Shown: piece by piece, positions 34,087 through 48,126 of the stretch
Numbering within the stretch: position 1 is the first letter of the stretch
Layout of the letters: the number at the start of each line of letters is the position of its first letter
Source: Candidatus Aenigmatarchaeota archaeon
GTDB taxonomy: Archaea; Aenigmatarchaeota; Aenigmatarchaeia; GW2011-AR5
Direction of reading: 5' to 3'
Assembly: GCA_016187335.1 (NCBI GenBank)
Contig: JACPJW010000002.1
Span: forward strand, 32,510 to 96,509
DNA: 64,000 bases
Program-made: the position numbers and the translations under genes
Notes under the pieces: generated by a model
The model's database searches: none
The model's input: the letters and a program-made list of their open reading frames with translations, nothing else
Told to the model about the DNA's origin: nothing

Positions 34087-37000
34087 TTATGGCGCAGGAC
34101 CGCCGCCCCCTCCGCCACCGCTTCCGAACGAGCATCCCTGGCAGACGAAGACATTGCCAAGGAATGCCTGCTCCGTGGAGCCGCCGGATGTTATGGCGCC
34201 CTTTATCTCGTTAGGCATGCCTGACCTCCATCCGCCTGTTCTTGTGACATTGAACGCCGCGCAGCCGCTCGGTCCCGTGAGCACGCTGAGCGTGACGCTG
34301 TTCGTGAACGGGTCAAACATCGTAAGGTTCTCCGTAGTCGGCGGTCCGTTGAAGCTGAAGCTCTGCGTTGTCACGTTGGTCACGTTCGCGCCTATGAGCG
34401 GCGTTTCGGGCCTTGAATACGTGAAAGCGCACGCCCTGACCGTGATATTTCTTGAGTCAGTCGCCGAGTTGCTTGCTATGACCGTTGTAGGAGAGCCCTC
34501 GTTGCGCTTTCCTAAAATGATTTTCATGACAGTGCTGTTAACGGTCTGGTTGCCGTCTACCTTGTACGCGTCCTGAGGGGAGAAAGCTATCTGCGCCGTC
34601 CAGTTGCCGAATGCCGGCGGAGATCCTACATCTACCATTGTATTGTTCGTGTTCAGGTGCGAGTCATCATCTATGACAAGCTCGGTGAGATGACCACCCG
34701 CTATGGGCGTGAGAGGCCCCCCGAAGGCGTAGCCACCGGCCTGCGTCGCGTTTCTCAATGCAAAGTAATAAAATTCGCTGCTGGAGCTGCTGTTTACAAT
34801 ATCTCCTTGCGTTGACTCGTTCCATGTACCGAGGTAGAAGGTCTCCCCGGTGATTGTCGCGTTGTAAGTTGCGTTATTTGCTGTTCTCGTAAGCGTGATT
34901 ACATGAGGAGCGTAGCCGGATGTTCCGCTGTCTAAATCAGTTCTAAAGGCCTTCACCTCAATAGGCACGCCTTCCGAGAAGTCAGCGATATCTGAATCGC
35001 TGCCGTCCGTGAAGTTCCACATTATGCTGTAAAGCCCGCTTTTGCTGACGTTCAGTTGCAGGAACGCCACGCCGTTGGCATCCGTCGTTGCCGCTGTCTT
35101 TGTGAAATTGCTTGCAGGCAGGAAGTCCTTGAAGCCGAAGCCGCCCCTTCCGCCGCCGAAGTCCTCCTGCTGTATCATCTGGAAAACGTCCATTATCACG
35201 CTGGGCTTTGCCGCTGTTCCCTGCTTCACGACGAAAGGTATCGTTGCTATCGTGTTCACGGCATGCTGGCCGCCGAAGCCCGAGCCGCGGTCGCTCTCGG
35301 TTATCGTGCTGTTAAGCAGCTTTACGTAGCCGCACTCTTCCACTTTTACAAGATAAAGTCCGCCGAAGCCCGCTGATGCAAGGGAGCGGTTGTTCGCGTT
35401 TACAACAGCTATGCGGTTGCTGTTGTTTATAACAAGGGTGTCGTAAACGCCTGCTGTTGCATTGTCCAAAGCAACCAAAGTCGTAGTGGCATTATAGGTT
35501 ATGCGCTGGTCGCCTCCCATACCGAAGCGCGTCACGTTGAAACTATTGATTACGCATACGCGCCCGGATTTTGAAGTCGTACTCTTAAAACTGGCATTTA
35601 TCGCTGTTAAGACTACCTTGTGGTTGTTGTAGAAGTTTGTAACATTGGTGGCGTCACTCCCGTCGGCTTCCACTCCGAAGTTCGACATCAGCGCGCCTTC
35701 CGTGTCCGGCACTGCTATTGACAGCTTTGAAGCCGTGCCAAACATCATGACGTCAACGGATTCGTTGAGGTAGTTGTGAACCTTGATGATTATCATGTTG
35801 AAGCCCTTCCTGAGGTTTGACGGAACAGTGAATGTGACGTTCCACCGCTCGAAATCGTTCCAGCCTATGTGAGCGGAATTGTTCCATCCGTCCGATTTCT
35901 TGCTGTAATTGGTAATAGTTGCGTCCTGGATAGAGCCTTCCCAAGGCAGCCCTACCTGCACCGTGAAGTTCAGCAGGCTTGTCGTAACGTTCGTCCTTGC
36001 CATGATGTTGTACGTCACTGCCTGCCCTGCCGTAAGCGCCTGCTGCGGGTTTCCGGACTGGAAATCAGGGAACGCGTCAAATGCCACTACCATGAAGCCG
36101 CCGAAACTTGTATCGCATACGTCATCAGCGGCGTTAGTGTTGTTGTTATCGTCGCACACGCGTATAATCAGGTTATTGAATCCGTTGAACCACTTGCCGC
36201 CTAGGCTTGAAAATGCCGTTGCTGAAAGGTTGAAGTTCACTACGCCGTTCGTGATGTTGTAGGTTGTTACAAGCCCCGGCACGAATTTCGGCCCTCTGGA
36301 AGGGTCGAAACTCTCAAGCCGCACTATGCTGACCGTGCCGTTCACCGTGCTGTTCCTTGTGTTCAGATTCTTCACACCGCTTATCGTTATATTCAGCAGG
36401 GAAGTCGGCGCGACGAAAGATCCTCCCGTGCCCGTGGAACCGACAGCTGCTATCTGCGGGAAGAACGACAGCTGCCTGCACTCAAACCCTCCAGGCAGCG
36501 TATCATATTTGCCGTCAGCCGTCGTGATGTTGACAAGCATGAAATGGAATCCGGACAGCGAGCCTGAAAAGTTCAGCGTCATGTTGCCGACGCCGTTGCT
36601 GTCCGTAGCCGCTGATGATGCTAATGCCACTGAGCTTGCGACGCTTCTTCCCGTCAGTTCCTCGCGCACTTCCTGTATCGAGTTGAACACAACATTTCTT
36701 GCCGCCCCTCGAGTGCGTACATCAAAGATGCGGGCTGAAAAGTTCTGCAGGCCGCTGCACCGGAAATTGCCGCCTTCAAAATTGCCGCCTGGGCTTTCTC
36801 CGGGACCTCCTCCAGGTCCTGCGTCAAACCCGCCGCCGAAGCTGTCAGGAAACACGAAGCCTTCCACGTAGCGCGCAAAATAAAATGCAGTTCCCCTGAT
36901 GATGGTTGAATTGGCAACTGTCGCCTGGAACTCTATCTGGAACGGTCCTGTCCTGTTCTCGGGCAGTTTGAGTTTGAGTTTAGGGTTTGCTGTCGCTGTG

Positions 37001-38625
37001 CCGTTCGTGTAGCCGTCAGCAGGCACAAAAATATTCGTTATCTCGCTCTGCCCGCCGCCGATGAAGTCCATCGGCGTTATCTTTGTGACATTGAAATTGG
37101 TAATCGAGCTTCCTGCAACGGCCGCGCCGCTTGCGGACAGGTTGCGCACCGAGAATTCAAAAGTTGCGTTGTCCCCAGGCATCAGAAATGACAGGAACTC
37201 TTTGCCACCTCCCAGCGATGACACAGGGCTCGGCTTCAGTATGTACGATTGCACGGCGAAATATCCCGTGGCAGCAACGGACATGTTGTTTGTCTGGTTT
37301 GCACCTACTGTTGCATTTACCGTCATCGAATAGATGCCGTCGGTGTTCGGCGCCGCGAACCTTATCTTGCACACGGTTTGTCCCGCGAAAAGATTTGTCG
37401 TTTTATTTGCTAATGCTATTGTAGGCACTGGTTCTGTGCTGCCATTGAGCACGTTCTTCAGCTCCACTGCCCTTAACGCAGTGCAGTTGACATCCGTGCC
37501 GCTGTTTGTAGTTATGCTCCCGTTGAGCAAAATGTCGTTGCCGCTGCTTAAATTGAAAATCAGAACATTGAACTCCACGTTGCCGCCTTTCTGGAAGGCT
37601 GACTGCGAGCCGAAGTCAAAGAAGAAGTCCTTGACTATTTCCATCTTGCCTTCAAGCGCCTGCACGGTCGCTGACGATGTTGACTTGACAATTTTTCCGG
37701 AAGCATTAGCCACGATTTCTATCTTGTACTCGCCCGCAAAGCTGCCGAACTGGCTCGTGTTGAATGTTCCGTTATATGTCCCGTCGGTTCCGGTCCCGTT
37801 GTGGGTCAGCGTCATGTTAACGATGGTGCCGTTCGGCAAGGTTATGAAGGCGTTTACTACCGCATTTGTTATCGCGTTGTTCTCGTCCCTGACCTTGCCC
37901 AGGATTGTTATGCTCTCTCCCTGGCCGAATGACGTTGCCGTGGAATTCGCCGTGTCCTGGATATTTGCAACAGCCACTACCGACGATTTGACCAGGAATA
38001 TGGTTACGCCAACGCCCTCGTCAAAGAAGATTACGTATCTGCCGTCGGCTGCGGCGGGCACGGTTATGTTGTATAAAATTGTGTTCGTGTTTATGCTCGT
38101 GGTCAGGTTTGCTATGCCCCATCCCGTGGAAACTAAGCCGTTCGGGTTGAATATCGACAGGTTCGGGACAGTCGGCGATGTTCCCACGAACGAAACGTTT
38201 AATTCGAAGTAGGAGCCGTTTGCGAAAGGCGGCCTCTTGTTGGTGAAGTTGAAAGTGGCATTAGCGAGAGAACCCACCTTTATCTCAATGTTTTCCCTGA
38301 TTACCGTTCCGTTATTCAGGGTTACGTTAAGGCTTACGTTGTATCTTCCTGTTGTGTTCGGCGTCGTGACATTGAATTCATAGAATCCTAGGCTGGAGAA
38401 GTTGGCGGAAAAAACGGTGAAATTTGAGCTGCCCAGATACCCCGTGACGTTTGTATAATTGCCCAGGGACGAATTGTCAAATTTTATGTACCCCTTCACC
38501 GTCAGGTTTGTGCCGTTGCGCGTGTAAAGCTTCGCGTCGGCGTCAATGTAGTCGGCGAAAGCCAGAGAACTTGCCAAAAGAACTAAAAATACTGTGAACA
38601 TTACGGGAAAATTACTGCGTTTCAT
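34087..38625 (-). CDS. Very large Asn/Thr/Gly-rich secreted glycoprotein (S-layer/adhesin-like)
   Basis: Likely start MKRSNFPVMF at 38625 with signal peptide; very many N-x-S/T sequons; beta-rich repeats. Confidence 0.82.
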   Translation of the reverse strand: MKRSNFPVMFTVFLVLLASSLAFADYIDADAKLYTRNGTNLTVKGYIKFDNSSLGNYTNVTGYLGSSNFTVFSANFSSLGFYEFNVTTPNTTGRYNVSLNVTLNNGTVIRENIEIKVGSLANATFNFTNKRPPFANGSYFELNVSFVGTSPTVPNLSIFNPNGLVSTGWGIANLTTSINTNTILYNITVPAAADGRYVIFFDEGVGVTIFLVKSSVVAVANIQDTANSTATSFGQGESITILGKVRDENNAITNAVVNAFITLPNGTIVNMTLTHNGTGTDGTYNGTFNTSQFGSFAGEYKIEIVANASGKIVKSTSSATVQALEGKMEIVKDFFFDFGSQSAFQKGGNVEFNVLIFNLSSGNDILLNGSITTNSGTDVNCTALRAVELKNVLNGSTEPVPTIALANKTTNLFAGQTVCKIRFAAPNTDGIYSMTVNATVGANQTNNMSVAATGYFAVQSYILKPSPVSSLGGGKEFLSFLMPGDNATFEFSVRNLSASGAAVAGSSITNFNVTKITPMDFIGGGQSEITNIFVPADGYTNGTATANPKLKLKLPENRTGPFQIEFQATVANSTIIRGTAFYFARYVEGFVFPDSFGGGFDAGPGGGPGESPGGNFEGGNFRCSGLQNFSARIFDVRTRGAARNVVFNSIQEVREELTGRSVASSVALASSAATDSNGVGNMTLNFSGSLSGFHFMLVNITTADGKYDTLPGGFECRQLSFFPQIAAVGSTGTGGSFVAPTSLLNITISGVKNLNTRNSTVNGTVSIVRLESFDPSRGPKFVPGLVTTYNITNGVVNFNLSATAFSSLGGKWFNGFNNLIIRVCDDNNNTNAADDVCDTSFGGFMVVAFDAFPDFQSGNPQQALTAGQAVTYNIMARTNVTTSLLNFTVQVGLPWEGSIQDATITNYSKKSDGWNNSAHIGWNDFERWNVTFTVPSNLRKGFNMIIIKVHNYLNESVDVMMFGTASKLSIAVPDTEGALMSNFGVEADGSDATNVTNFYNNHKVVLTAINASFKSTTSKSGRVCVINSFNVTRFGMGGDQRITYNATTTLVALDNATAGVYDTLVINNSNRIAVVNANNRSLASAGFGGLYLVKVEECGYVKLLNSTITESDRGSGFGGQHAVNTIATIPFVVKQGTAAKPSVIMDVFQMIQQEDFGGGRGGFGFKDFLPASNFTKTAATTDANGVAFLQLNVSKSGLYSIMWNFTDGSDSDIADFSEGVPIEVKAFRTDLDSGTSGYAPHVITLTRTANNATYNATITGETFYLGTWNESTQGDIVNSSSSSEFYYFALRNATQAGGYAFGGPLTPIAGGHLTELVIDDDSHLNTNNTMVDVGSPPAFGNWTAQIAFSPQDAYKVDGNQTVNSTVMKIILGKRNEGSPTTVIASNSATDSRNITVRACAFTYSRPETPLIGANVTNVTTQSFSFNGPPTTENLTMFDPFTNSVTLSVLTGPSGCAAFNVTRTGGWRSGMPNEIKGAITSGGSTEQAFLGNVFVCQGCSFGSGGGGGGGPAP

Positions 38626-38789
38626 TCCATCACTTGAAAATAATGCTAACAAAAGATGGTTTTGGGCGGTATAAATAGTTTTTAAACTACGCCGGAAAAG
38701 AAAAAAGTATGAATTTATCATACTTAAAACCGGAGCGGAAAAATCCGGATTCTTCCGCGCCTTTAATTATCTGAAAGCAAAATGTAATC

Positions 38790-40202
38790 ATGCTCCGACC
38801 CGCGCGCCTGGTGAAGCTGTACTGCTTCTTTCCGAAAAAATCTGCCGGTGTAGTCGCCGAAAGGCTTCAGGACATCGGACTTGTGCACCTGTTTGACATA
38901 AAGGAAGAGGACCGCTCCCTGAGGCCGCTGGCTGCTGCAAGCAGAAAAGAATCCGGTGAATTGAAAGAAAAACTGAAAAAATATTTGGCCGGGATGAAAA
39001 AAGAAAAGCCTCTTGAAATGCTGATAGGCCCCGGATACGTTGAACTGGGCAAAAAGAAAGACGCCGAGCTTATTGGAGAGGCAAAAAGCCTTGTGAAAGA
39101 AATTGAGAAAAGCGGGGATGGCGGAAGAAAGAGGCTCTACAGCAGGGTGCTGTCCGTGGCCGAAAGCCTTGAAGACCTTGAAAAAAGGCTTGACGCCATG
39201 GAAAAATTCGGTTCGACGCAGCGGACAGCTTCTTTCGCCTGCTTTGTGAAAGAAGAAAATGTGCCCGACGTCACGAACACCCTTGACGCAGTGGCAAAAG
39301 GCAAGTTCGCCTTTGAAGTGAAAAAAGCCGGCGATAAAGCCCCGACGCTGCTTGACAATGCAGCAATTGTAAAGCCCTTTGAAATCCTGACGGAAAGCTA
39401 CGGGATGCCGCCGTATAATGGGTTTGACCCGACCTTGCTGCTGGCAGTGACGTTCACGCTGTTCTTCGGCATCATGTTTCCCGACGCAGGCTACGGAGCT
39501 GTCATCGCGGCGATGAGCGCCCTGGCGTATTATATAACAAGGAAGGCGTCAAGATTCGCCAGAAATTTAAACATCATACTGGTTTATTGCGGGCTTTCCT
39601 CAGTTGTCTTTGGCCTTTTTTTCGGCGAGCTTTTCGGTGTAAAAATACAGCCAATCCTTTTTGAGCCGACAAGGGACCTGATAGCGATATTCCTGATTTC
39701 AATAATCATAGGCATTGTCCACCTTTCTGCCAGTCTTGCATCAAGAGCGGCTGTGGAAAAGGAAAAGATTTATTCCCTTAGTGTCCTGGCTGCTCTCTGG
39801 TCTGCCGTGCTGTTCGCCTACTCAAGAGAAATGATTTATTTGGGATTGTTCGCCGCGGCTTTTGCCGTAATGCTCCACAAAAAGGGATTTTACGCTGCGA
39901 AGGATATTGCGGGGATTTTCACGAGAATCCTGTCCTACCTGAGAATAGGAATCCTGAGCATAGCCCACATATCGGTGTCAAGGGTTTTCGTGAACATAGC
40001 AATAAGCGCGCCGAAAACCCTTGAAGGGGTATTGCTTGCGGCGTTCCTCATAGTAATCGGCGTGTCCCTCTCGTTTGCCATAGGCGTCGCCGTCGTGTTC
40101 CTTCAGTCGCTGCGCCTCGAGTGGCTTGAGTTCTTCGGCGAGCTGGAAATGGGCGGCACAAAGTTCGAGCCGTTCCGCCGCAGGAAGGAATATTTGTATT
40201 AG
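38790..40202 (+). CDS. atpI: V/A-type ATPase subunit I (a)-like protein, shortened and isolated
   Basis: FGIMFPDAGYG, LSYLR, LRLEWLEFF..GGTKFEPF; short N-terminal domain. Confidence 0.85.
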   Translation: MLRPARLVKLYCFFPKKSAGVVAERLQDIGLVHLFDIKEEDRSLRPLAAASRKESGELKEKLKKYLAGMKKEKPLEMLIGPGYVELGKKKDAELIGEAKSLVKEIEKSGDGGRKRLYSRVLSVAESLEDLEKRLDAMEKFGSTQRTASFACFVKEENVPDVTNTLDAVAKGKFAFEVKKAGDKAPTLLDNAAIVKPFEILTESYGMPPYNGFDPTLLLAVTFTLFFGIMFPDAGYGAVIAAMSALAYYITRKASRFARNLNIILVYCGLSSVVFGLFFGELFGVKIQPILFEPTRDLIAIFLISIIIGIVHLSASLASRAAVEKEKIYSLSVLAALWSAVLFAYSREMIYLGLFAAAFAVMLHKKGFYAAKDIAGIFTRILSYLRIGILSIAHISVSRVFVNIAISAPKTLEGVLLAAFLIVIGVSLSFAIGVAVVFLQSLRLEWLEFFGELEMGGTKFEPFRRRKEYLY

Positions 40203-40221
40203 GAGGAATATTTGTATTAGG
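40186..40221 (+). repeat. Perfect 18-bp tandem duplication AGGAATATTTGTATTAGG x2
   Basis: Copies at 40186-40203 and 40204-40221; includes the atpI stop codon. Confidence 0.9.
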
Positions 40222-40261
40222 ATTTGCTCAAGATATGTTACATAATATCACGCAAATCCTA

Positions 40262-40309
40262 TATAGAGAATTGCGTTTCGATGTAGCATAATCAACGCAA
40301 TTCTCTATA
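40262..40309. repeat. Perfect 16-bp inverted repeat with 16-nt spacer
   Basis: TATAGAGAATTGCGTT (40262-40277) / AACGCAATTCTCTATA (40294-40309), intergenic. Confidence 0.9.
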
Positions 40310-40427
40310 CTCAAAGACATTAATTTTTGTACAAATAATGTCTTTGGTATATCTGAATGACATTATAATATGTTCAATAAATTATGTCATTCAGTATATA
40401 TTAAAGATTTCCTGCGCATTGCTAATT

Positions 40428-40844
40428 GTGATAACAAAAATTCTCGTGCCGACGGACGGTTCCGTGTTTTCGCGCAAGGCCTCAAAGCTTGCCATAGACA
40501 TAGCCAAAGCCGCAGGCGCCGAAGTCGTCGCCGTGCATGTAATAGAGGTGAAACCGCCCAAGCTTCTGGAAGGAGCCGACATAGAAAAGCTGAAATCAAA
40601 ACAAGCAGACGTATGCTTCAGGGATTTCGAGGAAGAGGCAAAGAAATCCGGCGTTGCCTTTGATTCGCGGATGCTGGTTTCCAGAAGCGTTTCAAAAACA
40701 ATAATTGAATACATAGACGCGGAAAGCCCCGACATCGTTGTGATGGGCTCCAAGGGCCTTACGGGCCTGAAGAAGATAATGATGGGCAGCGTGACAACGG
40801 CGGTCCTGGAAAAAACTGCCGTGCCGCTGCTCGTGGTGAAGTAA
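40428..40844 (+). CDS. Universal stress protein (UspA family)
   Basis: KILVPTDGS, VVAVHV, DIVVMGSKG..MMGSVT..V; start moved to GTG 40428. Confidence 0.93.
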   Translation: MITKILVPTDGSVFSRKASKLAIDIAKAAGAEVVAVHVIEVKPPKLLEGADIEKLKSKQADVCFRDFEEEAKKSGVAFDSRMLVSRSVSKTIIEYIDAESPDIVVMGSKGLTGLKKIMMGSVTTAVLEKTAVPLLVVK

Positions 40845-40882
40845 ACTTTTTCTCGATGCTGTCGCGGCATTCGCTTTCCGTC

Positions 40883-41986
40883 TTACTTAAGCATGTAGTC
40901 ATCAATATTCTTCTTTGCCTTCTCCCTTTTCTTTTTGTGGTCTTTCAGGAACGCCGCTAATTTCTTTATCAACAGTTCCTTCACTTCGCCCGTGAACATC
41001 GAGCCGTTCCTGTAATTGCTGAAAATTTCTGAGATTTTTTTGTCGCTTTCCTCAAAGAGAAAATACAGGTACTGGCACGCCACGTCCACGTCAGGGTTGC
41101 CGCCCTTCTCCTTGTGTTCCTGTAATGTCCTTCCTCCGCCGGAAAATGCCGAGCGTATTTTTTTCGCGGCTGTCTCCGGGCTGTCGCTGAGAAATATGCA
41201 AGTCTCAGGCTTGCTCCCGCTCATTTTTCCGCCCTGCAGGCCCGGCATGAACTTGTGGTATGTCGATGACGGCTTCACCATGCCGACCTTCTCTGCCAAA
41301 TCACGCGACAGCCGCATGTAAGGGTCCTGGTCGATGCCTATTGGAACCACGGTCGGTTTCGGCCCGCCAAAATCCTGCAGTTGCGGCAGCAGGATGTGCG
41401 CTGCTTGCACGATAGTGTAGAAAATAGCGCCCGGGTTCGTCTCGTTGTCAAAGCCGAATATGGCTTTGATAGTGGAAAATGTCGTGCGCGTCGATAATTT
41501 CACAGCCAGCTCATAAACCCGCTTCTCCTCCGTGGAAACGAAAATGTGCGTCCTGCCTTTCTTGAAGCCTAAAGCAATTATGTCTGGTATCACTTGTTCA
41601 TAGGCAATCTGCGTAGCCTTTTCCAGCGAAGCCTGCTTTTTGAAAACGTAAGTCTCGTCGTTGCTTATTGGAATGAAAACGTCCGCGCCCATATCCTGGA
41701 AGAACAATGCCTGCTTCAGGAACAGCAGGTTTCCCAGATGCGGCGGCCCGCTCGGATTAAAGCCGGTCAGCACAGCGAACCTTTTCTTATTCATGATGGA
41801 ATCGTAGATGCGCTGGAAATTCCTGTGCGCGAACACGATGCCGCGCCTGTACATGGGCGGAAGCTTCTTCCTGTCCATTTTTTTCATGAATTCATCTATC
41901 GGCTCGACGCCGAATTCTTTCATTAAAGCATCGTAGTCTACTTCCCCTTCCACGCCTGAAACGGTTACTTTTGCCATTAGAATCAC
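40883..41986 (-). CDS. trpS: Tryptophanyl-tRNA synthetase (archaeal type)
   Basis: VDYDALMKEFG, TGFNPSGPPHLGN, VVPIGIDQDPY, KMSGS. Confidence 0.96.
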   Translation of the reverse strand: MILMAKVTVSGVEGEVDYDALMKEFGVEPIDEFMKKMDRKKLPPMYRRGIVFAHRNFQRIYDSIMNKKRFAVLTGFNPSGPPHLGNLLFLKQALFFQDMGADVFIPISNDETYVFKKQASLEKATQIAYEQVIPDIIALGFKKGRTHIFVSTEEKRVYELAVKLSTRTTFSTIKAIFGFDNETNPGAIFYTIVQAAHILLPQLQDFGGPKPTVVPIGIDQDPYMRLSRDLAEKVGMVKPSSTYHKFMPGLQGGKMSGSKPETCIFLSDSPETAAKKIRSAFSGGGRTLQEHKEKGGNPDVDVACQYLYFLFEESDKKISEIFSNYRNGSMFTGEVKELLIKKLAAFLKDHKKKREKAKKNIDDYMLK

Positions 41987-42018
41987 TATGTTATTGTTGT
42001 TTATGGTTTTTATTTGGT

Positions 42019-42705
42019 TTAATGGTTCATCTGATGGTATACAGACTCCAGAAGTATTTCCATGCTGTCAATGATTTGGACGCCAAAGTCATTCTTTAAT
42101 ACAAGCTGGAGGTCTGTGCACCCCAGAACTATTGCCTCTGAGCCCCTTCCTTTCAGGTTTCTGATTACTGCTTCCATTGTATTAATATCATCATCCGAAA
42201 CCCTGTTTTCCAGTATCTGAACTATTATTCTGGATATTTCTTCCTGCTCGTCTTTTTCAGGCAGGATAACCTTTATGCCGTTGTTCTCCACCGGAATTTC
42301 GTATAGTTTGCTTTCTATTGTCTTGGCGGTTGCAAGCAGCCCGACCTTTTCAAGATTGTTTTCCTTCACGGCACTGATGGTTTCGTCTATTATGCTCAAA
42401 ATCGGCGCTCTGGATTCTTTTCTCAATTCATCTATGAAAATATGCACAGTGTTGCATGGAATTGCTATGAAATCCACTCGGCTGTAATTAAGTCTTTTGA
42501 TGCTTTCCTTGAGAAAAGGCAGCAGTCTGCCTTCATTCACGGAATTCTGTATTATATCTCTTTCCAGATGGAAGGGGAACGGAACGTTGTCTATGATTAT
42601 CGATGGATACGAATCACCGTTGTTCCTGAATTTTTTTATCAGTTCCAGATAAAATTCCGCGGTCGTTTCGGGACCCAGACCGCCGACTATTCCTACGGAT
42701 TTCAT
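42019..42705 (-). CDS. Aspartate/glutamate racemase
   Basis: VGIVGGLGPETT, IPCNTVH and LGCTDL (both catalytic Cys), GLLAT; ATG 42705 overlaps the upstream TGA. Confidence 0.9.
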   Translation of the reverse strand: MKSVGIVGGLGPETTAEFYLELIKKFRNNGDSYPSIIIDNVPFPFHLERDIIQNSVNEGRLLPFLKESIKRLNYSRVDFIAIPCNTVHIFIDELRKESRAPILSIIDETISAVKENNLEKVGLLATAKTIESKLYEIPVENNGIKVILPEKDEQEEISRIIVQILENRVSDDDINTMEAVIRNLKGRGSEAIVLGCTDLQLVLKNDFGVQIIDSMEILLESVYHQMNH

Positions 42706-43604
42706 ATTAACGCCCTCTGGTAAGGTTCCAGGATATTCTGCACAACAAGGCGCTGAGCGGTTTTTTTCAGCTTGTTGCCGTTCATGGAGTTTATCTGCTC
42801 TTCCGCAAGGCATTCTACCCCTCTCATGTAACCTGCAACGGAAGCGACCCTCAGGAAATAGCGCAAAGCCTGGTCGTTGGCCATGGAAAGCTTTGTCAGG
42901 GCTTTCCGATGATTAAAATCATAGTCTTCAAGAAAAATTCTCTGCCCGATTTCTCCGTTCTCCCCGTTTCCCCTGTCGCCCGGTATATAATGCACAACTT
43001 TCTGCGGCTCTCTCGTGTCCAGAGCATACGCATCGGTCAGATAAGCGAAATATAACGGCAGGCCTATTTTTCTCATTATAAAATCGTAAGCTGTTTCCTG
43101 GGAAGGCCCGACTTTCACCTCTATTCCTCTTGTCCTGTTGAGGAAAGCCGTGCACGCGATTTCATTGAGCGGGTAATTTATCGCATCGTCCATAAATTTT
43201 CGTCTTTTGGGAACGGTTTCCAGAAGAAATCCTTCCATTCCGCAATCCAGCACCCGGCTGTGCATTTCCATGACAACTGACTTGTATTCCGGCGTCCTCA
43301 TGAAATCAGAAGAAACGATTATTTCAGGAAAAAATCCGTAAACGTCGCCCAGCCTTTTCAGCGCCTCCTGCGTCTGCCCCAGATAAAAGGCAACTTCCTC
43401 TTCGGGCACACTATTGAAACGCTGGAACTCATCAACAAGCAGCAGGTGGTATTTTCCCGCCTCGCGTCCCGCCAGAAAAACGGTCGCTACATCTATCGGC
43501 ACTCTCTGGCCGTAATTCATGCCGAGAAACGCCGATTTCTGCGCCAAATCAATCCCGATAGGGTCCGTGGATTGTACAAGGCTCGGCGGTTTTGTTTCGT
43601 TCAT
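42702..43604 (-). CDS. Divergent TyrRS-like (class Ic fold) protein lacking HIGH/KMSKS
   Basis: Colinear by-eye similarity to archaeal TyrRS: KSAFLG, LLLVD..FN, SSDF..EY, YPLNE, VKVGP, RIFLED, C-terminal KLKK..NILEPYQRAL. Confidence 0.6.
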   Translation of the reverse strand: MNETKPPSLVQSTDPIGIDLAQKSAFLGMNYGQRVPIDVATVFLAGREAGKYHLLLVDEFQRFNSVPEEEVAFYLGQTQEALKRLGDVYGFFPEIIVSSDFMRTPEYKSVVMEMHSRVLDCGMEGFLLETVPKRRKFMDDAINYPLNEIACTAFLNRTRGIEVKVGPSQETAYDFIMRKIGLPLYFAYLTDAYALDTREPQKVVHYIPGDRGNGENGEIGQRIFLEDYDFNHRKALTKLSMANDQALRYFLRVASVAGYMRGVECLAEEQINSMNGNKLKKTAQRLVVQNILEPYQRALI

Positions 43605-44048
43605 TTTTCATCGCCTATCGTAGTTTTTCAAAATATGATGAACCAGATAATCCGGCAGAAGCCCCGCTCTCCCTCTCATCCTGATTTTAACGGATTGCCC
43701 TTCCATTTTAGAAAGCGTTTCTAATTTTTCTCGAGGAAATATGTCATTACCAGATAGAAGAATTGCTGATAATTCATCATGATAACTAGCTACAGGTTTT
43801 CTCTCGCAAGCAAAATACATGCCAGTAAATGTCCTTCCTGTTTGTATTTCTGTAGCTTCGATTGATACTTTTCTTCCGTTGGTGGTGGAATAACTCGTAA
43901 TATCAAATGGAGAAAGTTTTCCTCCTGTAGGCACTGCATAACTAACCTTCATTTCCTGTCCTACATCAACCTTGTCTAACCTCAAAGTTCTCTCTGGTCC
44001 AACAAGGATATTCAGAAGTGTACTAGCTAGTGCCATTTTTCATCGCCT
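43602..44048. repeat. 15-bp direct repeat CATTTTTCATCGCCT at 43602-43616 and 44034-44048
   Basis: Identical junction AGGCGA-TGA-AAA-ATG (minus strand) on both sides of the 142-aa gene. Confidence 0.9.
43608..44036 (-). CDS. AT-rich hypothetical protein flanked by 15-bp direct repeats
   Basis: 142-aa ORF with 3-nt gaps to both neighbours. Confidence 0.65.
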   Translation of the reverse strand: MALASTLLNILVGPERTLRLDKVDVGQEMKVSYAVPTGGKLSPFDITSYSTTNGRKVSIEATEIQTGRTFTGMYFACERKPVASYHDELSAILLSGNDIFPREKLETLSKMEGQSVKIRMRGRAGLLPDYLVHHILKNYDRR

Positions 44049-44267
44049 CAAAAATTCCGACTCATTGTATTCTACCATACCGGCATCCTTCAGTCTGTTC
44101 AGCAATGTTTCGTAGTCACTTTTCGGCAAGCTTGCAAAGTATATGGTTAATGCTTTGATGAAAGCTTCCGGTTTTTCTGAAGGGCTCTCAAATTTGTGCA
44201 CAGAGGCATTGGGTTTAACCCCTATATGATAATCCAAGCTTCCGTCATTGGTTTCCATTACAATCAC
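44040..44267 (-). CDS. Hypothetical protein
   Basis: 75-aa ORF, GAGGTGA SD-like; start could be ATG 44258. Confidence 0.55.
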   Translation of the reverse strand: MIVMETNDGSLDYHIGVKPNASVHKFESPSEKPEAFIKALTIYFASLPKSDYETLLNRLKDAGMVEYNESEFLRR

Positions 44268-44516
44268 CTCGAAAATTCTCGTTCAGAAAATAAACCTTCC
44301 TTCTTCTATCCTGAAAGGAACCTCTGGCAGAAATCAAGCCTAGAGAAACCAGCTGAGCCAAGGCGTACTTTACAGCGCGCTTCGACAACCCCGTTTTGCT
44401 CCGGATATAGCCTTGGCTTATGTCATTACTGATGCCAGGGCGTCGAAGAGCTCCGAGAACTAATTAAATCCAGTATCCTACTTTCCGATTTTGTCAGACT
44501 GATTCCAGGGTTGCAT
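44245..44516 (-). pseudogene. Frameshifted MarR-like winged-HTH remnant
   Basis: One frame gives SLTKSESRILDLISS; another gives ISQGYIRSKTGLSKRAVKYALAQLVSLGLISARGSFQDRRRKVYFL; no in-frame start for either. Confidence 0.6.
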
Positions 44517-44582
44517 CACGATTCACTTCACCTATAATGTAAGTCAGTTTTTAAATGGCTAACGATAGGTGCAAAAATTAAT

Positions 44583-44927
44583 CTAACGCATCGGCAACGC
44601 TGCGTATCTGGTGTCTCTGCTTTCCCACAAAAGCCTTAGGTTCTCCCTGTCCACAGGACTCCACTGAGCGGGGCGCGATTGTTCCAGCGGAAAATGTTTT
44701 CTTGCAATTCTTTCGGCTTCCGCTTTGTCAGGAAGAACTCTGTTATCGCCGTAAGGCCTAATTGCAACCTTTCGAAGATTATAGCCTTGATAGAGACCAG
44801 AAACCGAAAGTCCGTTGTCCAACAGAACCTCTTCAGCACTGAGGGATAGGTTGTCGCCCGGCGTTGTCCGGTTTTTCGGAACCAGTTCCATGGAACCGTT
44901 CTCAAAGGATATTTGGTAGATGCTCAT
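44583..44927 (-). CDS. Hypothetical protein
   Basis: 114-aa ORF in gap. Confidence 0.5.
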   Translation of the reverse strand: MSIYQISFENGSMELVPKNRTTPGDNLSLSAEEVLLDNGLSVSGLYQGYNLRKVAIRPYGDNRVLPDKAEAERIARKHFPLEQSRPAQWSPVDRENLRLLWESRDTRYAALPMR

Positions 44928-45030
44928 GCTGTTATTTTCCCGGTTTTCTTATTAATATTTTCCTGCCAGAAATATTCCAATCGGAATAAAGAAACAAATG
45001 ATTTAAAAGGTTTTCTGTCAAAATTTATTC

Positions 45031-45579
45031 ATGCTTCCGGAAATTGGCGAAATAAAGAGAAGGCGGATGCGACTCGGGCTGAAGCAACTTGAGCTTGCGC
45101 GCGCCAGCAACGTCAGCCAGTCGCTGGTTGCCAAGATAGAATCAGGAAAGCTCAATCCTTCCTATGAAATTGCAAAAAGAATTTTCGCCGCGCTGGACCA
45201 CCACGAGCGCGGAGAGGAAAAGAAAGCGAAGGACATAATGGCGGAGAAGCTGATTTTCGCGAGAAAGACTGATACAGTGAAAGACATTACGACAACGATG
45301 AAGAAGCACGGCATATCGCAGCTGCCTGTGCTGGACAAGAACGCAATTATCGGCAGCATCTCGGAGAAGGCTATAATGGATCACATAGGCAACGGCGGCG
45401 ACGTCAGCAGCCTCAGTGTGGGAAAAATTATGGAAGAACCCTTCCCTACTGTCGGCGAAAGCGCGCCTGTGTCGATGCTGAAGTCCCTGCTGACTCACAG
45501 CCAAGCGGTTGTCGTGATGAAAAATAGCAGGCCCGAAGGCATTATAACCAAGTCGGACTTGCTGAAGATGGCGAGATAG
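45031..45579 (+). CDS. XRE-type HTH plus CBS-pair transcriptional regulator
   Basis: RRMRLGLKQLELARASNVSQSLVAKIESG, then CBS pair (GISQLPV, GIITKSDL). Confidence 0.93.
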   Translation: MLPEIGEIKRRRMRLGLKQLELARASNVSQSLVAKIESGKLNPSYEIAKRIFAALDHHERGEEKKAKDIMAEKLIFARKTDTVKDITTTMKKHGISQLPVLDKNAIIGSISEKAIMDHIGNGGDVSSLSVGKIMEEPFPTVGESAPVSMLKSLLTHSQAVVVMKNSRPEGIITKSDLLKMAR

Positions 45580-45585
45580 AGTAAT

Positions 45586-45975
45586 TTATCTTAATTTTAT
45601 CAGCTTCAGGCACTTTATTTTTCCGAAATGTTTTGTATCATCCGTGAACAAGGGCGTTTTAGAATCAATGGCGTGCTGCGCGATTATGGCGTCATTAATC
45701 AGAACATGTTCAGTTAGTTCTAATGCCTTTTCAATCGTTTCCTTCTCAACAGGAATGTAAACAAAGCTTTTGCTTGACAAAATATTTTTTGTTCTTTTCA
45801 ATGCTTCTTCATGATTTTTTATAATGCTTAATTTGTGAAAAACTTCAGAAATAATTATTGTGTTGATCAAAATACCTTCCTCGGCAAAACTAGATAGTTT
45901 TTCCACAGCAATTTTATGTTCTGGGTATTCTTCTGTCTCCGAAAAAATTATAACATTAGAATCGGCGAGAATCAT
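45586..45975 (-). CDS. vapC: PIN-domain toxin (VapC-like)
   Basis: ILADSNVII, SEV, NDAIIAQHA, LFTDD; ATGA overlap with the antitoxin. Confidence 0.88.
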   Translation of the reverse strand: MILADSNVIIFSETEEYPEHKIAVEKLSSFAEEGILINTIIISEVFHKLSIIKNHEEALKRTKNILSSKSFVYIPVEKETIEKALELTEHVLINDAIIAQHAIDSKTPLFTDDTKHFGKIKCLKLIKLR

Positions 45976-46232
45976 GGAAGCCACATTTCTTCTTCAATTT
46001 TCTTAAGGTCAATTTTCTTCAATTTTTTAGGGTCTACGTGGATTGGATTTCTTATGTCGTTCAAAAACGGATCGACTTCCTTAACAGCTTTATCATCTTT
46101 TAGCTTTTTCAGGACAATAGAATCCTTATCAACCTGAAGTCTAAAACGCTGGCTCTGCTTCAGTCTTATATTTTTTCTTACCTGCTTCGGCAGGACAATT
46201 CTCCATTTTTTGTCTATTTTCACGATAGCCAT
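45972..46232 (-). CDS. AbrB/MazE-type antitoxin
   Basis: VKIDKKWRIVLPKQVR..SIVLKK swapped-hairpin pattern. Confidence 0.85.
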   Translation of the reverse strand: MAIVKIDKKWRIVLPKQVRKNIRLKQSQRFRLQVDKDSIVLKKLKDDKAVKEVDPFLNDIRNPIHVDPKKLKKIDLKKIEEEMWLP

Positions 46233-46272
46233 ATTTTGACCCACTAATATGTGGGCTAATTCTTATTTAAAG

Positions 46273-48126
46273 TTATTTCTTTCTTCCCCAGACGTAATAG
46301 TATTCCGTGAACTTTTTCTTCTCTTTTCTGATGCTGAAAGAAACGCCCAGCCCGGAAAACAGATGGCTTATTTTCTGCTCGTTCTCAAGGAAATCGTTCG
46401 CCGGCAGCCCGAATGACCTGCCGAAGCTGAGAAATGAAAAGGAGCCGCCTTTTTTCAGCGTTTTGAACATTTTTCTCAGAGAGGCCTTGGGCTTGTCCAG
46501 ATATTCCAGAACGCCGACGCAAACCACGGCGTCAAAGGAGTTTTTGGGGAAATCCGCGCTGTCTTCCTTCACGAAAACAACGTTGGGCATCTTTGACTTT
46601 TTTGCCTTGTCCAGAGCCTTTTCCAGCTGCTTCTGGCTCAGGTCAACCGCAACAACCCGCTTCGCTTTCCTGGCGACAGCCAATGCAGTTGTTCCCGAGC
46701 CGCAGCCGAAGTCCAGGACAACGCTGCCTTTTTTCAGTCCAAGCCTTGAAACCACAAGATTCACTTCCCTTTTGCCGTACCATACCGAGAACAGTTTTTC
46801 CCAGAAAAACGAGGCGTCGTTGAAAAATCCTTCAACGAATTTCTTGTCATGCTGCAGCTTGATTATGGCATAAAGAGGGAATCCCATGAGAACCAGTATC
46901 AGGCCCAGCAAAAATATGTCCGCAGCGCCGGGCACTGTTTCTATCCATATGCTTAACAACAATATATTGAAAGCAGCGACAAGGAGCGGCAGCTTGTCGT
47001 TCATCGGGGAGGTGTAGCCGCGTTTTCCCCGGTATGTTCTGCTTAATTTGACAACGCAAAGAAGCACGACAGAATAAACTATGACAACAAGCGGTATGAG
47101 AAGCGATATCAATATCATGTAACTCCCGAGACCAATTATTGTTACCAAAGAAGACACAATAGTCTGGAAAATTATCGCATTGTGCGGCGTCCTGTATTTT
47201 TTGTGAACTTCCCCGAGGCTTTTTATCAGGACGCGGTCGCGGGACATGGCGTAAAGCAGCCGCGGCGAGGATACCATCCAGCCGGCTGCTGTTCCTATAA
47301 GTGGAATAAAAACGATGATGGCAAACAGCGGTGCAAAATCGCTGCCGAAAATCTTTGAAGCGATAAAAACGAGAGGCGCCTGCTGGGCGGAAAATTCTTT
47401 CCAGTCAGCAACGCCCAGTGAAACAAATACAATCAAGATTGATATGACAGCAATTATAGATGTCGCAATCACAAGAATTTTAGGCAGTGTTTTCCTGACA
47501 TCCTTGATTTCTTCCGCAAGGTATGTAGTTGTTTCCCATCCGAAAAATGTTTCTGATATGAAATATATGGCAAGGAATATCGAACTGGCAGGGAACAGAA
47601 AGAAAGGATGAAAGTTGGAATAATCGACCTTTAGCATGCCCGGAAATATTATGAAGAGAAGCGAAAGCGCCGTTACAATGCCGAAAATCAGGAGCAGCCT
47701 TGACGACCAGTCGATGCCCCGGTAATTTATGTAATTGAAAAGTATTATTATGAAAAGCGACGCAATAATGTAGAAGTTCATTCCCTGCAACGGAAAAAGA
47801 TAGTAGAGGGATCCGACGACGAGCATCGCTATTGTTATGTTGGCGATGATCCATGCAGTCCATCCCATGATGAAAGACCACTTCTCGCCGAAAGCCCTTT
47901 TAACGTACTCGTAAACGCCTCCGGCCTTAGGGTACATAGAAACAAGCTCGGCGAAGCACATGGAAATAAGTATAGCAATAGCGCCCATGACTGCCCACGA
48001 TATTAGGGATGCGGGCCCTGCGTAAGCGGCGCCTATTGCAGGAAGAAAGAATATTCCTGTGCCGAGTATCGCATTTATGGCAAGGAGCAGCAGCGTGAAC
48101 TTGCCTATGCTTCTCTTGAGCTTCAT
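46273..48126 (-). CDS. APC-family amino-acid permease fused to C-terminal class I methyltransferase
   Basis: ILGTGIFFLP, AELVSMYPKAGGVYEY, GWET, PRLLYAMSRD; then VLDFGCGSG, VDLS, FDAVVCVGVLEY in one ORF. Confidence 0.88.
   Translation of the reverse strand: MKLKRSIGKFTLLLLAINAILGTGIFFLPAIGAAYAGPASLISWAVMGAIAILISMCFAELVSMYPKAGGVYEYVKRAFGEKWSFIMGWTAWIIANITIAMLVVGSLYYLFPLQGMNFYIIASLFIIILFNYINYRGIDWSSRLLLIFGIVTALSLLFIIFPGMLKVDYSNFHPFFLFPASSIFLAIYFISETFFGWETTTYLAEEIKDVRKTLPKILVIATSIIAVISILIVFVSLGVADWKEFSAQQAPLVFIASKIFGSDFAPLFAIIVFIPLIGTAAGWMVSSPRLLYAMSRDRVLIKSLGEVHKKYRTPHNAIIFQTIVSSLVTIIGLGSYMILISLLIPLVVIVYSVVLLCVVKLSRTYRGKRGYTSPMNDKLPLLVAAFNILLLSIWIETVPGAADIFLLGLILVLMGFPLYAIIKLQHDKKFVEGFFNDASFFWEKLFSVWYGKREVNLVVSRLGLKKGSVVLDFGCGSGTTALAVARKAKRVVAVDLSQKQLEKALDKAKKSKMPNVVFVKEDSADFPKNSFDAVVCVGVLEYLDKPKASLRKMFKTLKKGGSFSFLSFGRSFGLPANDFLENEQKISHLFSGLGVSFSIRKEKKKFTEYYYVWGRKK

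What the first reader, a model, noticed from the sequence alone, without database searches (positions are those of the whole stretch)
40883..43604. TyrRS-fold paralogue without ATP-binding motifs coupled to an Asp/Glu racemase
The 300-aa ORF tracks archaeal TyrRS end to end as I recall it: KSAFLG~KSAYIG, LLLVD..FN~ILLAD..LN, SSDF..EY~GSEF..DY, YPLNE..VKVGP~YPIMQ..VAVGG, ILEPYQRAL~ILEPIRKRL. It has neither HIGH nor KMSKS. Cyclodipeptide synthases are established class Ic-fold enzymes lacking these motifs and using a YxxxE motif; YPLNE fits, but the CDPS catalytic Ser (GxS) appears as GMN. An ATGA overlap with a two-Cys racemase, 32 nt upstream of trpS, suggests an undescribed tRNA-dependent transferase or D-amino-acid pathway (inference).
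Basis: partly seen in the sequence, partly recalled or inferred. Interest (0 to 1): 0.78.

Follow-up and report, generated by a model that had tools for sequence, protein, structure and literature searches.

The report
Trp-linked pseudo-synthetase paired with racemase
A tiny groundwater archaeon carries a full structural copy of a tyrosine/tryptophan tRNA synthetase that can no longer use ATP. It is locked in one operon with an amino-acid racemase and the real tryptophan tRNA synthetase, and the set most likely lets the cell use tryptophan of either handedness when tryptophan is scarce.

Summary
ORF 42702-43604 (-) has the whole TyrRS/TrpRS fold (pLDDT 94; TyrRS Z 22.3; CDPS Z 12-15, Rossmann part only). 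It has no HIGH or KMSKS and no Pfam/NCBIfam hit. It overlaps by ATGA a two-Cys racemase lying 32 nt before the genome's only trpS; a canonical tyrS lies on the other contig.

It belongs to a broad family of ultra-small archaea.
- Of 51 non-redundant members, 33 touch a racemase on the same strand, and 24 of those pairs have overlapping stop/start codons.
- 46 touch a racemase or have TrpRS, TyrRS or HisRS nearby.
- Racemases beside HisRS lack His (0.10% vs 1.51%). Those beside TyrRS lack Tyr (1.1% vs 3.0%). The window-type pseudo-synthetases lack Trp (0.05% over 27,529 residues).
- The pocket helix changes with the branch. The Tyr branch keeps TyrRS's Y..Q..D; the window branch has YPLNEIAC.
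- Other relatives are fused to chorismate mutase.

Best reading: a Trp-specific salvage module built to be made during Trp starvation. The pseudo-synthetase binds the cognate amino acid, or aminoacyl end, as partner of the racemase. Whether it senses or catalyses is open. CDPS membership fails. Mukai et al. 2017 described a probably related 'ORF1' of unknown function, and this scan met the family in other genomes.

The parts
42702..43604 (-). X300: 300-aa TyrRS/TrpRS-fold pseudo-synthetase, Trp-linked branch. HIGH is replaced by VPID (35-38) and KMSKS by GQR (220-222). The pocket helix is YPLNEIAC (144-151) with F26. It contains no Trp.
42019..42705 (-). Two-Cys PLP-independent amino-acid racemase (Asp/Glu racemase family), 228 aa. 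Its start overlaps the X300 stop (ATGA). It contains no Trp and falls in the TrpRS-linked racemase clade.
40883..41986 (-). trpS, the only tryptophanyl-tRNA synthetase of the genome (PHLGN, KMSGS), 32 nt after the racemase. It contains no Trp.
43608..44036 (-). up142: 142-aa protein of unknown family, 3 nt before X300. It contains no Trp and is conserved upstream of X300 in L005 and L006. The model is of low confidence and shows a small beta-barrel.
44040..44267 (-). up75: small ORF of about 72 aa, 3 nt before up142 and joined by the same GGCGATGAAAAATG junction. It contains no Trp. Probably the first gene of the operon.
46273..48126 (-). Amino-acid permease fused to a SAM methyltransferase domain (617 aa). 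It recurs near racemase/X300 modules in L011, L012, L050 and L058. Possible uptake step; the link is loose.

Best explanation
Shown: the operon up75-up142-X300-racemase-trpS encodes a full-length TyrRS-fold protein that has lost both ATP signatures. It is translationally coupled to a two-Cys racemase and followed by the cell's only TrpRS. X300 is the Trp branch of a family whose members pair with racemases next to TrpRS, TyrRS or HisRS. Both partners are depleted in the amino acid of the neighbouring synthetase, and the former amino-acid pocket changes with the branch.

Inferred: the module supplies one amino acid, here tryptophan, and is built to be made while that amino acid is short. The archaeon shows neither TrpA nor chorismate mutase and takes up amino acids. 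The racemase turns D-Trp into L-Trp for TrpRS. X300 binds the cognate amino acid, or the aminoacyl end of its tRNA, in the inherited stereo-selective pocket. It acts as a non-aminoacylating partner of the supply enzyme, as a sensor or gate that keeps the reversible racemase from wasting L-Trp. This is the logic of HisZ with HisG. In other lineages the same domain is fused to chorismate mutase. Whether X300 only binds or also catalyses a step is not settled.
For: Fold and lost motifs.

Gene linkage:
- 16 of 19 window-type and 33 of 51 family genes touch a racemase. 46 of 51 touch a racemase or have a W/Y/H synthetase within 3 genes.
- All 33 pairs lie on the same strand, and 24 have overlapping stop/start codons.

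Cognate depletion:
- His-linked racemases (n=13) have His 0.10% against 1.51% (p 6e-7).
- Tyr-linked racemases (n=8) have Tyr 1.11% against 3.0% (p 2e-4).
- In each class the cognate residue is the most depleted of the 20.
- His-type X300 have 0-1 His in 9 of 9.
- Window-type X300 have Trp 0.05% over 27,529 residues, and 81 of 93 have none, against a background of 0.94-0.97%.
- The window's five genes form the longest Trp-free run of the genome (gene-order shuffle P 0.04).

Pocket co-variation:
- The Tyr branch has Y-E-R-x-Q-L-A-D plus Tyr at the F26 position, which is the TyrRS motif (own TyrRS: YPMMQTAD, AYDG).
- The His branch has Y-x-P-x-E-x-A-E.
- The Trp branch has YPLNEIAC plus F26.
- The CM-fused forms have F-A-x-N-E-L-S-V.

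Fusion to an apparently intact chorismate mutase, beside an aminotransferase.

Auxotrophy and chirality setting: no CM_2, no TrpA over cut-off and no DTD1 or DTD2 in the genome. DTD2 occurs in 1 of 371 genomes of the phylum.
Against: - No biochemical data exist, and racemase specificity for Trp is inferred only from context and composition.
- All racemases of the phylum are Trp-poor (0.07%), so Trp depletion of the racemase itself does not discriminate.
- The Tyr-linked X300 keep 8-13 Tyr.
- Many racemases sit next to TrpRS or HisRS with no X300 (L093, L097, L103, L068, L083, L090), so X300 is not required for the racemase.
- About 25 invariant polar residues lie where the synthetase active site was (K164, E170, D174, R222). 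This fits an enzyme as well as a sensor.
- The basic C-terminal domain (pI about 10) leaves tRNA binding open.
- The classes are few clades, so the number of independent events is small.
Confidence: 0.45

Rival explanations
1. X300 is an enzyme that works on aminoacyl-tRNA. The most plausible version is a synthetase-derived D-aminoacyl-tRNA deacylase (chiral proofreading). It would clear D-Trp-tRNA(Trp) made by TrpRS when the racemase or uptake fills the cell with D-Trp, and the racemase would recycle the released D-Trp.
For: - CDPSs, class Ic derivatives without ATP motifs, are established users of aa-tRNA (established knowledge).
- X300 keeps the whole synthetase architecture, including a basic C-terminal domain.
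- DTD1 and DTD2 are absent from the genome, and DTD2 from the phylum (1 of 371).
- TyrRS and TrpRS are known from E. coli work to mischarge D-amino acids (established knowledge).
- A PheRS-type B3/4 editing-like domain takes the racemase's place, fused to TrpRS in L008 and free-standing in L060.
- Protein-language features place it nearest CDPS-like clusters (0.92).
Against: - The fusion to chorismate mutase and the link to an aminotransferase have no place in proofreading.
- The His branch lies by a class II HisRS, whose tRNA a TyrRS-type domain would have to relearn.
- The catalytic-like domain is acidic (pI about 5), while true synthetases of these genomes have pI 8.5-9.
- No candidate nucleophile is universal: C151, E148 and D58 vary between branches.
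Confidence: 0.22
2. X300 is a CDPS-like, tRNA-dependent peptide-bond-forming enzyme or aminoacyl transferase. It would join Trp from Trp-tRNA to a D-amino acid made by the racemase.
For: - The Y144...E148 spacing matches the Y178/E182 pair of CDPS.
- CDPS structures are the next-best fold class (Z 12-15).
- Atlas features are CDPS-like.
- A paralogue in L017 gives a faint TIGR04539 hit (E 0.027).
Against: - The catalytic Ser position is not conserved.
- E148 is Q in the Tyr branch.
- There are no CDPS HMM hits.
- No tailoring genes lie nearby.
- Cognate depletion points to supply under starvation, not to spending the scarce amino acid on a secondary product.
Confidence: 0.07
3. X300 is a non-catalytic subunit that binds or heterodimerises with the neighbouring TrpRS (the idea of Mukai et al. 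2017 for ORF1). It would change TrpRS affinity or stability when Trp is scarce.
For: - Class Ic synthetases are obligate dimers, and pseudo-dimers exist (PMC5370408, PMC9437257).
- TrpRS adjacency occurs in 8 of 19 window-type loci.
- The Trp-free composition is shared with ORF1.
Against: - The tightest and most general partner is the racemase, not the synthetase.
- The His branch lies by a class II enzyme with which a TyrRS-like dimer interface makes no sense.
- The CM fusions are not explained.
Confidence: 0.1
4. X300 is a small-molecule enzyme of aromatic or cognate amino-acid metabolism. It would catalyse a cofactor-free step on an amino-acid-like precursor, for example an arogenate or prephenate-type dehydratase in the CM-fused forms, or a hydrolase that releases the amino acid from a derivative.
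For: - In L017 and L061 the fused forms combine an intact CM and a HisC-like aminotransferase with X300, and no prephenate dehydratase or dehydrogenase lies in those loci.
- Charged residues are invariant in the old active site.
- Hydrolases lie nearby in other loci: VanX-like M15 in L033 and FmdA amidase in L060.
Against: - The window genome has no chorismate mutase.
- No single reaction fits both the racemase and the CM contexts.
- The pocket keeps the alpha-amino ligands of TyrRS, which suggests the finished amino acid.
Confidence: 0.1

Closest known systems
Archaeal/eukaryal-type tyrosyl- and tryptophanyl-tRNA synthetases (class Ic, PF00579; e.g. A. pernix TyrRS 2cya, M. jannaschii TyrRS)
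   Same: - Whole fold: Rossmann domain, CP1 and C-terminal helical domain (Z 22.3 over residues 8-300).
- The order of motifs is colinear.
- The pocket helix has the pattern Y-P-x-x-[QE]-x-A-x.
- In the Tyr-linked branch the Tyr-OH ligands are kept.
   Different: - No HIGH and no KMSKS, so no amino-acid activation.
- No PF00579 hit.
- The catalytic-like domain is acidic.
- Always paired with a racemase.
- Purged of the cognate residue.
HisZ, the HisRS paralogue that is the regulatory subunit of ATP phosphoribosyltransferase HisG (compare also the HisRS-like domain of GCN2)
   Same: A synthetase paralogue that no longer aminoacylates but keeps amino-acid (or tRNA) recognition and serves an enzyme of that amino acid's supply. 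This is what X300 is proposed to work like.
   Different: - Class II rather than class I.
- The partner is a biosynthetic transferase, not a racemase.
- Binding of X300 to its partner is not shown.
- There is no homology.
Cyclodipeptide synthases (PF16715, TIGR04539)
   Same: A class Ic-derived Rossmann fold without ATP motifs, and a Y...E pair on the pocket helix in the window's branch.
   Different: - No conserved catalytic Ser.
- X300 has an extra C-terminal domain.
- The structural match is weaker and partial.
- No HMM hit.
- The E is not universal in the family.
ORF1 next to TrpRS-A / TrpRS-A-like in CPR bacteria and DPANN archaea (Mukai, Reynolds, Crnkovic, Soll 2017, Life 7:8; PMC5370408)
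   Same: - An unknown class-I-synthetase-like protein always beside TrpRS genes in ultra-small organisms.
- It lacks Trp residues, and its function is unknown.
- Loci L017, L029 and L061 fit that description, and their 315-336-aa paralogues hit the X300 profile.
   Different: - That paper reported putative HIGH/KMSKS-like motifs and no Rossmann fold.
- It did not mention racemases, Tyr or His branches, CM fusions or cognate depletion.
- Identity with X300 could not be checked residue by residue because no ORF1 sequences were held.
D-aminoacyl-tRNA deacylases DTD1, DTD2 and DTD3
   Same: A possible functional niche: D-Tyr/D-Trp-tRNA clearance in a phylum without DTD1 or DTD2.
   Different: Unrelated folds, and no activity has been shown for X300.

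Membership tests
Class Ic aaRS (TyrRS/TrpRS, PF00579) | Rossmann catalytic domain + CP1 + C-terminal helical domain | tested here: met
   VIA Z 22.3 (2cya; 260 aligned, rmsd 2.8); Foldseek E 1e-10; Atlas TM 0.75
Class Ic aaRS (TyrRS/TrpRS, PF00579) | HIGH and KMSKS ATP-binding signatures | tested here: not met
   VPID and GQR stand at the colinear places and are conserved in 28 homologues
Class Ic aaRS (TyrRS/TrpRS, PF00579) | Match to the family HMM | tested here: not met
   No Pfam or NCBIfam hit at E<=1. The profile finds no PDB synthetase
Cyclodipeptide synthase (PF16715/TIGR04539) | Catalytic Ser in the G-x-S loop | tested here: not met
   The position is N in the window and G, S or C in homologues. 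The equivalence rests on colinearity, not on a printed structural alignment.
Cyclodipeptide synthase (PF16715/TIGR04539) | Y178/E182-type pair on the pocket helix | tested here: inconclusive
   Y144/E148 are present in the Trp, His and CM branches. E is Q in the Tyr branch.
Cyclodipeptide synthase (PF16715/TIGR04539) | Family HMM match and single-domain architecture | tested here: not met
   No hit. CDPS structures cover only residues 7-193 (Z 12-15), and X300 has a C-terminal domain.
Asp/Glu racemase (PF01177, TIGR00035), the neighbouring gene | HMM over cut-off and two catalytic Cys | tested here: met
   139.5 and 173 bits. C85 and C197 are invariant in 27 sequences. 1JFL at 5e-36.
TrpRS (TIGR00233), the downstream gene | Equivalog HMM over cut-off, HIGH/KMSKS present, only copy in the genome | tested here: met
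   268 bits against 176.75; PHLGN and KMSGS. The only other PF00579 gene is TyrRS.
HisZ-like regulatory pseudo-synthetase (a 'works like' comparison, not homology) | Physical association with the supply enzyme | not testable with these tools
   Only indirect evidence: fusion to chorismate mutase in relatives and overlapping stop/start with the racemase in 24 of 33 pairs.
ORF1 of Mukai et al. 2017 | Unknown class-I-like ORF beside TrpRS-A / TrpRS-A-like, devoid of Trp | tested here: inconclusive
   The context is matched by loci L017, L029 and L061, whose paralogues hit the X300 profile. The window's TrpRS is the sole copy, and no ORF1 sequences were at hand.

The most novel reading that the evidence does not exclude
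Ultra-small auxotrophic archaea (and, by this scan's earlier notes, CPR bacteria) run amino-acid-specific 'mirror-image salvage' units for Trp, Tyr and His. In each unit a synthetase-derived pseudo-enzyme reads side chain and chirality. It either gates a dedicated racemase or clears D-aminoacyl-tRNA. That would make it a new class of chiral quality control or supply factor standing in for the missing DTD enzymes and feeding the neighbouring synthetase.
Probability: 0.3. Interest if true: 0.88.

Novelty: new variant of a known kind. Interest (0 to 1): 0.76.

Why it matters
Synthetase paralogues with new jobs are few, and each has been informative (HisZ, CDPS, AsnA, GenX). This one is a whole family with three or more amino-acid specificities that can be read from the sequence. 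It is tied to racemases and to the cognate synthetase in organisms that cannot make amino acids and lack the known D-aminoacyl-tRNA deacylases.

If the reading holds, it shows how episymbiotic archaea could live on D-amino acids released by bacteria, and how translation is shielded from them. It also offers natural TyrRS-fold scaffolds with pockets retuned for Trp, His and probably Phe.

The cognate-depletion signal gives a sequence-only way to assign substrates to uncharacterised racemases.

Tried and rejected
- Sequence-level homology to TyrRS/TrpRS: phmmer and profile searches against PDB and hhalign against the genome's own TyrRS and TrpRS were not significant. Only a low-stringency colinear alignment was obtained.
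- Complex prediction of X300 + racemase: no verdict (score 0.00, below the mark). It counts neither for nor against binding.
- Expression: no RNA holder was listed among sequencing runs; all holders are groundwater metagenomes. No reads were laid.
- tRNA genes near the modules: ARAGORN found none in the window or in 9 loci. tRNA genes of this genome are intron-rich according to earlier notes, so this is not evidence of absence.
- Rfam scan of 40000-46500 at E<=1: nothing, so no known leader or riboswitch.
- up142: no Pfam or NCBIfam hit, and no relatives in the word-indexed search. The AF2 model has pLDDT 66, and the best structural matches are small beta-barrels/OB-like domains at Z about 5, which is noise level.
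- X300-racemase or X300-synthetase fusions: none among the 90 hits of the exhaustive search, only CM fusions.
- DTD absence as a discriminator: rejected, because DTD2 is missing from the whole phylum.
- C151 as a universal nucleophile: rejected, because it is V, D, E or T in other branches.
- One search of earlier findings failed on a word limit.
Full report
**1. What is there.**
On the minus strand lies a tight string of genes:
- up75 (44040-44267);
- up142 (43608-44036);
- the 300-aa ORF, here called X300 (42702-43604);
- a racemase (42019-42705);
- trpS (40883-41986).

The junctions are 3 nt, 3 nt, an ATGA overlap and 32 nt.

The racemase is a bona fide two-Cys Asp/Glu-family enzyme. It scores PF01177 1.7e-40 and TIGR00035 173 bits, and it matches 1JFL at 5e-36 with both catalytic Cys kept.

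trpS is a normal archaeal TrpRS and the only one in the genome. A canonical TyrRS lies on the other contig.

The genome is about 1.01 Mb, 91% complete, and comes from groundwater. Its relatives are labelled Woesearchaeota or Aenigmatarchaeota.

**2. The fold.**
X300 has no Pfam, NCBIfam or PDB sequence match. It has about 90 clusters of relatives at 50% identity, and 25 residues are invariant among 28 aligned homologues.

The AF2 model is confident, with pLDDT 94 and pTM 0.91.
- Foldseek puts M. jannaschii TyrRS first, at E 1e-10.
- The Foldseek-independent search gives TyrRS at Z 20-22 and TrpRS at Z 17-19, both over residues 8-300. CDPSs score only Z 9-15 over residues 7-193.
- The Atlas search gives TyrRS clusters at TM 0.70-0.75.

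Sequence statistics do not show it.

HIGH is replaced by a conserved V-P-I-D and KMSKS by G-Q-R. The protein therefore cannot be an amino-acid-activating enzyme by the class I mechanism. This follows from established knowledge of class I aaRS.

**3. Linkage.**
In 13 genome loci found with the X300 profile, the racemase follows directly in 12 and trpS follows in four. L008 has two TrpRS genes and no racemase.

A scan of 371 genomes of the phylum gave these counts:
- X300 profile hits in 18 genomes;
- racemases in 82 genomes;
- DTD2 in 1 genome.

Sixty racemase loci were then fetched from genomes where the narrow profile had found nothing. Many of them hold divergent X300 paralogues right beside the racemase, followed by TyrRS or HisRS.

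Over all loci there are 51 non-redundant family genes.
- 33 touch a racemase.
- 24 have TrpRS, TyrRS or HisRS within three genes.
- 46 have one or the other.
- All 33 pairs lie on one strand, and 24 have overlapping stop/start codons (the start choice is heuristic).

Caveat: the later loci were picked by their racemase. The unbiased figure is the window-type one: 16 of 19 are adjacent, one more is within two genes, one is cut by a contig end, and one (L008) has a B3/4-TrpRS fusion in the racemase's place.

Racemases also sit directly beside TrpRS, HisRS or an Asp/Asn-type synthetase without any X300. Some genomes hold three or four racemase paralogues, each by a different synthetase.

**4. Cognate depletion.**
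The four window proteins up142, X300, racemase and TrpRS contain no Trp in 1038 residues. The genome mean is 0.96%, so P is about 5e-5 for random composition. With the neighbouring Usp gene they form the longest Trp-free run of genes in the genome. A shuffle of gene order gives only P 0.04 for that run.

The family-wide signal is stronger. The 93 X300 representatives hold 0.05% Trp, and 81 have none. Other ORFs of the same loci hold 0.94%.

The 80 non-redundant racemases were sorted by the nearest synthetase.
- His-linked racemases have 0.10% His against 1.51%.
- Tyr-linked racemases have 1.11% Tyr against 3.0%.
- In each class the cognate residue is the most depleted of all twenty.

By tree clade the figures are His 0.15% (n=21) and Tyr 0.86% (n=14). 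The two Asx-linked racemases are most depleted in Asp.

The X300 partners follow the same rule.
- His-type proteins have 0-1 His in 9 of 9.
- Trp-type proteins have no Trp.
- Tyr-type proteins have fewer Tyr, 8-13 against 13-18.

Low cognate bias is the known mark of enzymes that must be made while their own amino acid is lacking (established principle). I read it as evidence that each racemase/X300 pair serves the supply of one amino acid.

The classes form few clades, so the independent events are few. The match of depleted residue to neighbouring synthetase holds in every class.

**5. The pocket.**
The helix that carries Y-x-x-x-Q-x-x-D in TyrRS binds the alpha-amino group and the Tyr hydroxyl (established knowledge). 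In the genome's own TyrRS it reads YPMMQTAD. In X300 it changes with the branch:
- YPLNEIAC with F26 in the Trp branch;
- Y-E-R-x-Q-L-A-D, with Tyr at the F26 position, in the Tyr branch, which is the TyrRS solution;
- Y-x-P-x-E-x-A-E in the His branch;
- F-A-x-N-E-L-S-V with Phe in the CM-fused forms.

K164-x-G166, E170, D174 and R222 are universal. C151, E148 and D58 are not.

This is direct sequence evidence that the old amino-acid pocket is in use and is tuned to the amino acid of the neighbouring synthetase. The residue equivalences rest on colinear motifs and on the range of the structural match. They do not rest on a printed superposition.

**6. Other relatives.**
Thirteen proteins of 478-494 aa join X300 to a C-terminal AroQ chorismate mutase. 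Its catalytic residues are invariant, and an extra H1-like helix precedes it.

In L017 and L061 these proteins lie by a HisC-like aminotransferase, further X300 paralogues and two TrpRS genes. This is the layout published for ORF1/TrpRS-A by Mukai et al. 2017. That paper left the function open and noted the lack of Trp residues. No later paper was found.

The window genome itself has no chorismate mutase, no TrpA over cut-off, and neither DTD1 nor DTD2.

**7. Reading.**
The common theme of racemase, chorismate mutase with aminotransferase, permease, and nearby VanX-like, S66 and amidase genes is supply of an amino acid to its synthetase.

A reversible racemase is dangerous when L-Trp is scarce unless it is gated. 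A stereo-selective, side-chain-specific binding protein derived from a synthetase is a natural gate. This is how HisZ serves HisG. The fusion to chorismate mutase and the translational coupling fit a physical partnership. I hold this reading at about 0.45.

The main rival is an aa-tRNA hydrolase for chiral proofreading, at about 0.22. It explains the synthetase architecture, the basic C-terminal domain, the B3/4 domains and the absence of DTD. It does not explain the CM fusion or the His branch.

CDPS-like chemistry, a TrpRS heterodimer and a small-molecule enzyme are less likely.

**8. Earlier notes of this scan.**
I read these after my own analysis. They report the same family beside racemases in other archaea and CPR bacteria, and racemase-synthetase wiring for His, Tyr and Trp under starvation leaders. 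They agree with the linkage.

They do not contain the cognate-depletion and pocket co-variation results, as far as was shown to me. One note with the proofreading reading was later marked 'part of it fell'.

**9. Verdict.**
The protein is not a CDPS and not a synthetase. It is the Trp branch of an amino-acid-specific pseudo-synthetase family that partners racemases. The function is inferred, not shown.

Noticed in passing
window 43600-43612 and 44032-44044: The same 14-nt junction GGCGATGAAAAATG (…RR stop, AAA, ATG) joins up75 to up142 and up142 to X300. This may reflect duplication of a coupling signal or a shared C-terminal RR motif.
   Followed up: no
window 46273-48126 (-): A 617-aa fusion of an amino-acid permease (PF13520) with a SAM methyltransferase domain. 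Relatives lie near racemase modules in L011, L012, L050 and L058.
   Followed up: partly
L008 2797-4590; L060 6873-7541: A PheRS-beta-type B3/4 (editing-like) domain is fused to the N-terminus of a TrpRS in L008 and is free-standing just before TrpRS in L060. In L008 it stands where the racemase stands elsewhere.
   Followed up: partly
L060 5032-6009 (also L077, L087): A separate 325-aa TrpRS-derived pseudo-synthetase without HIGH or KMSKS and with no Trp. The gene order is racemase, pseudo-TrpRS, FmdA/AmdA-type amidase, B3/4 protein, TrpRS. This looks like a second, independent recruitment of a dead class Ic synthetase next to a racemase.
   Followed up: partly
L017 5703-7163; L061 10001-11437; alignment A3: The X300-chorismate mutase fusions carry an extra H1-like helix (VRPELDSI..., with invariant R330) about 50 residues before the Pfam-matched CM domain. 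This may make a natural monomeric AroQ mutase.
   Followed up: partly
L043 4024-7826; L044: A racemase is followed by two ATP-grasp ligases (RimK-like, YheC/D-like) and an LD-carboxypeptidase. This is a D-amino-acid peptide-type context different from the synthetase-linked one.
   Followed up: no
L046 4185-6191; L069: Two racemases lie next to a class II Asp/Asn/Lys-type synthetase. Their most depleted residue is Asp (3.3% vs 5.5%; n=2).
   Followed up: partly
window 45586-46244 (-); 45031-45579 (+); 40338-40844 (+): A PIN/MazE-type toxin-antitoxin pair, an HTH-CBS regulator, and a Trp-free universal stress protein convergent with trpS.
   Followed up: no
window 34087-38721 (-): A 1544-aa ORF with only a faint DEX1 beta-sandwich hit; probably a large surface protein.
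   Followed up: no
racemase tree: WIN vs L003-L015: The window's racemase belongs to the TrpRS-linked clade, which usually lacks X300 (nearest L097, 62% identity). Its X300 belongs to the branch that is usually paired with a different, divergent racemase clade. The window's operon therefore looks like a recombinant of two module types.
   Followed up: partly
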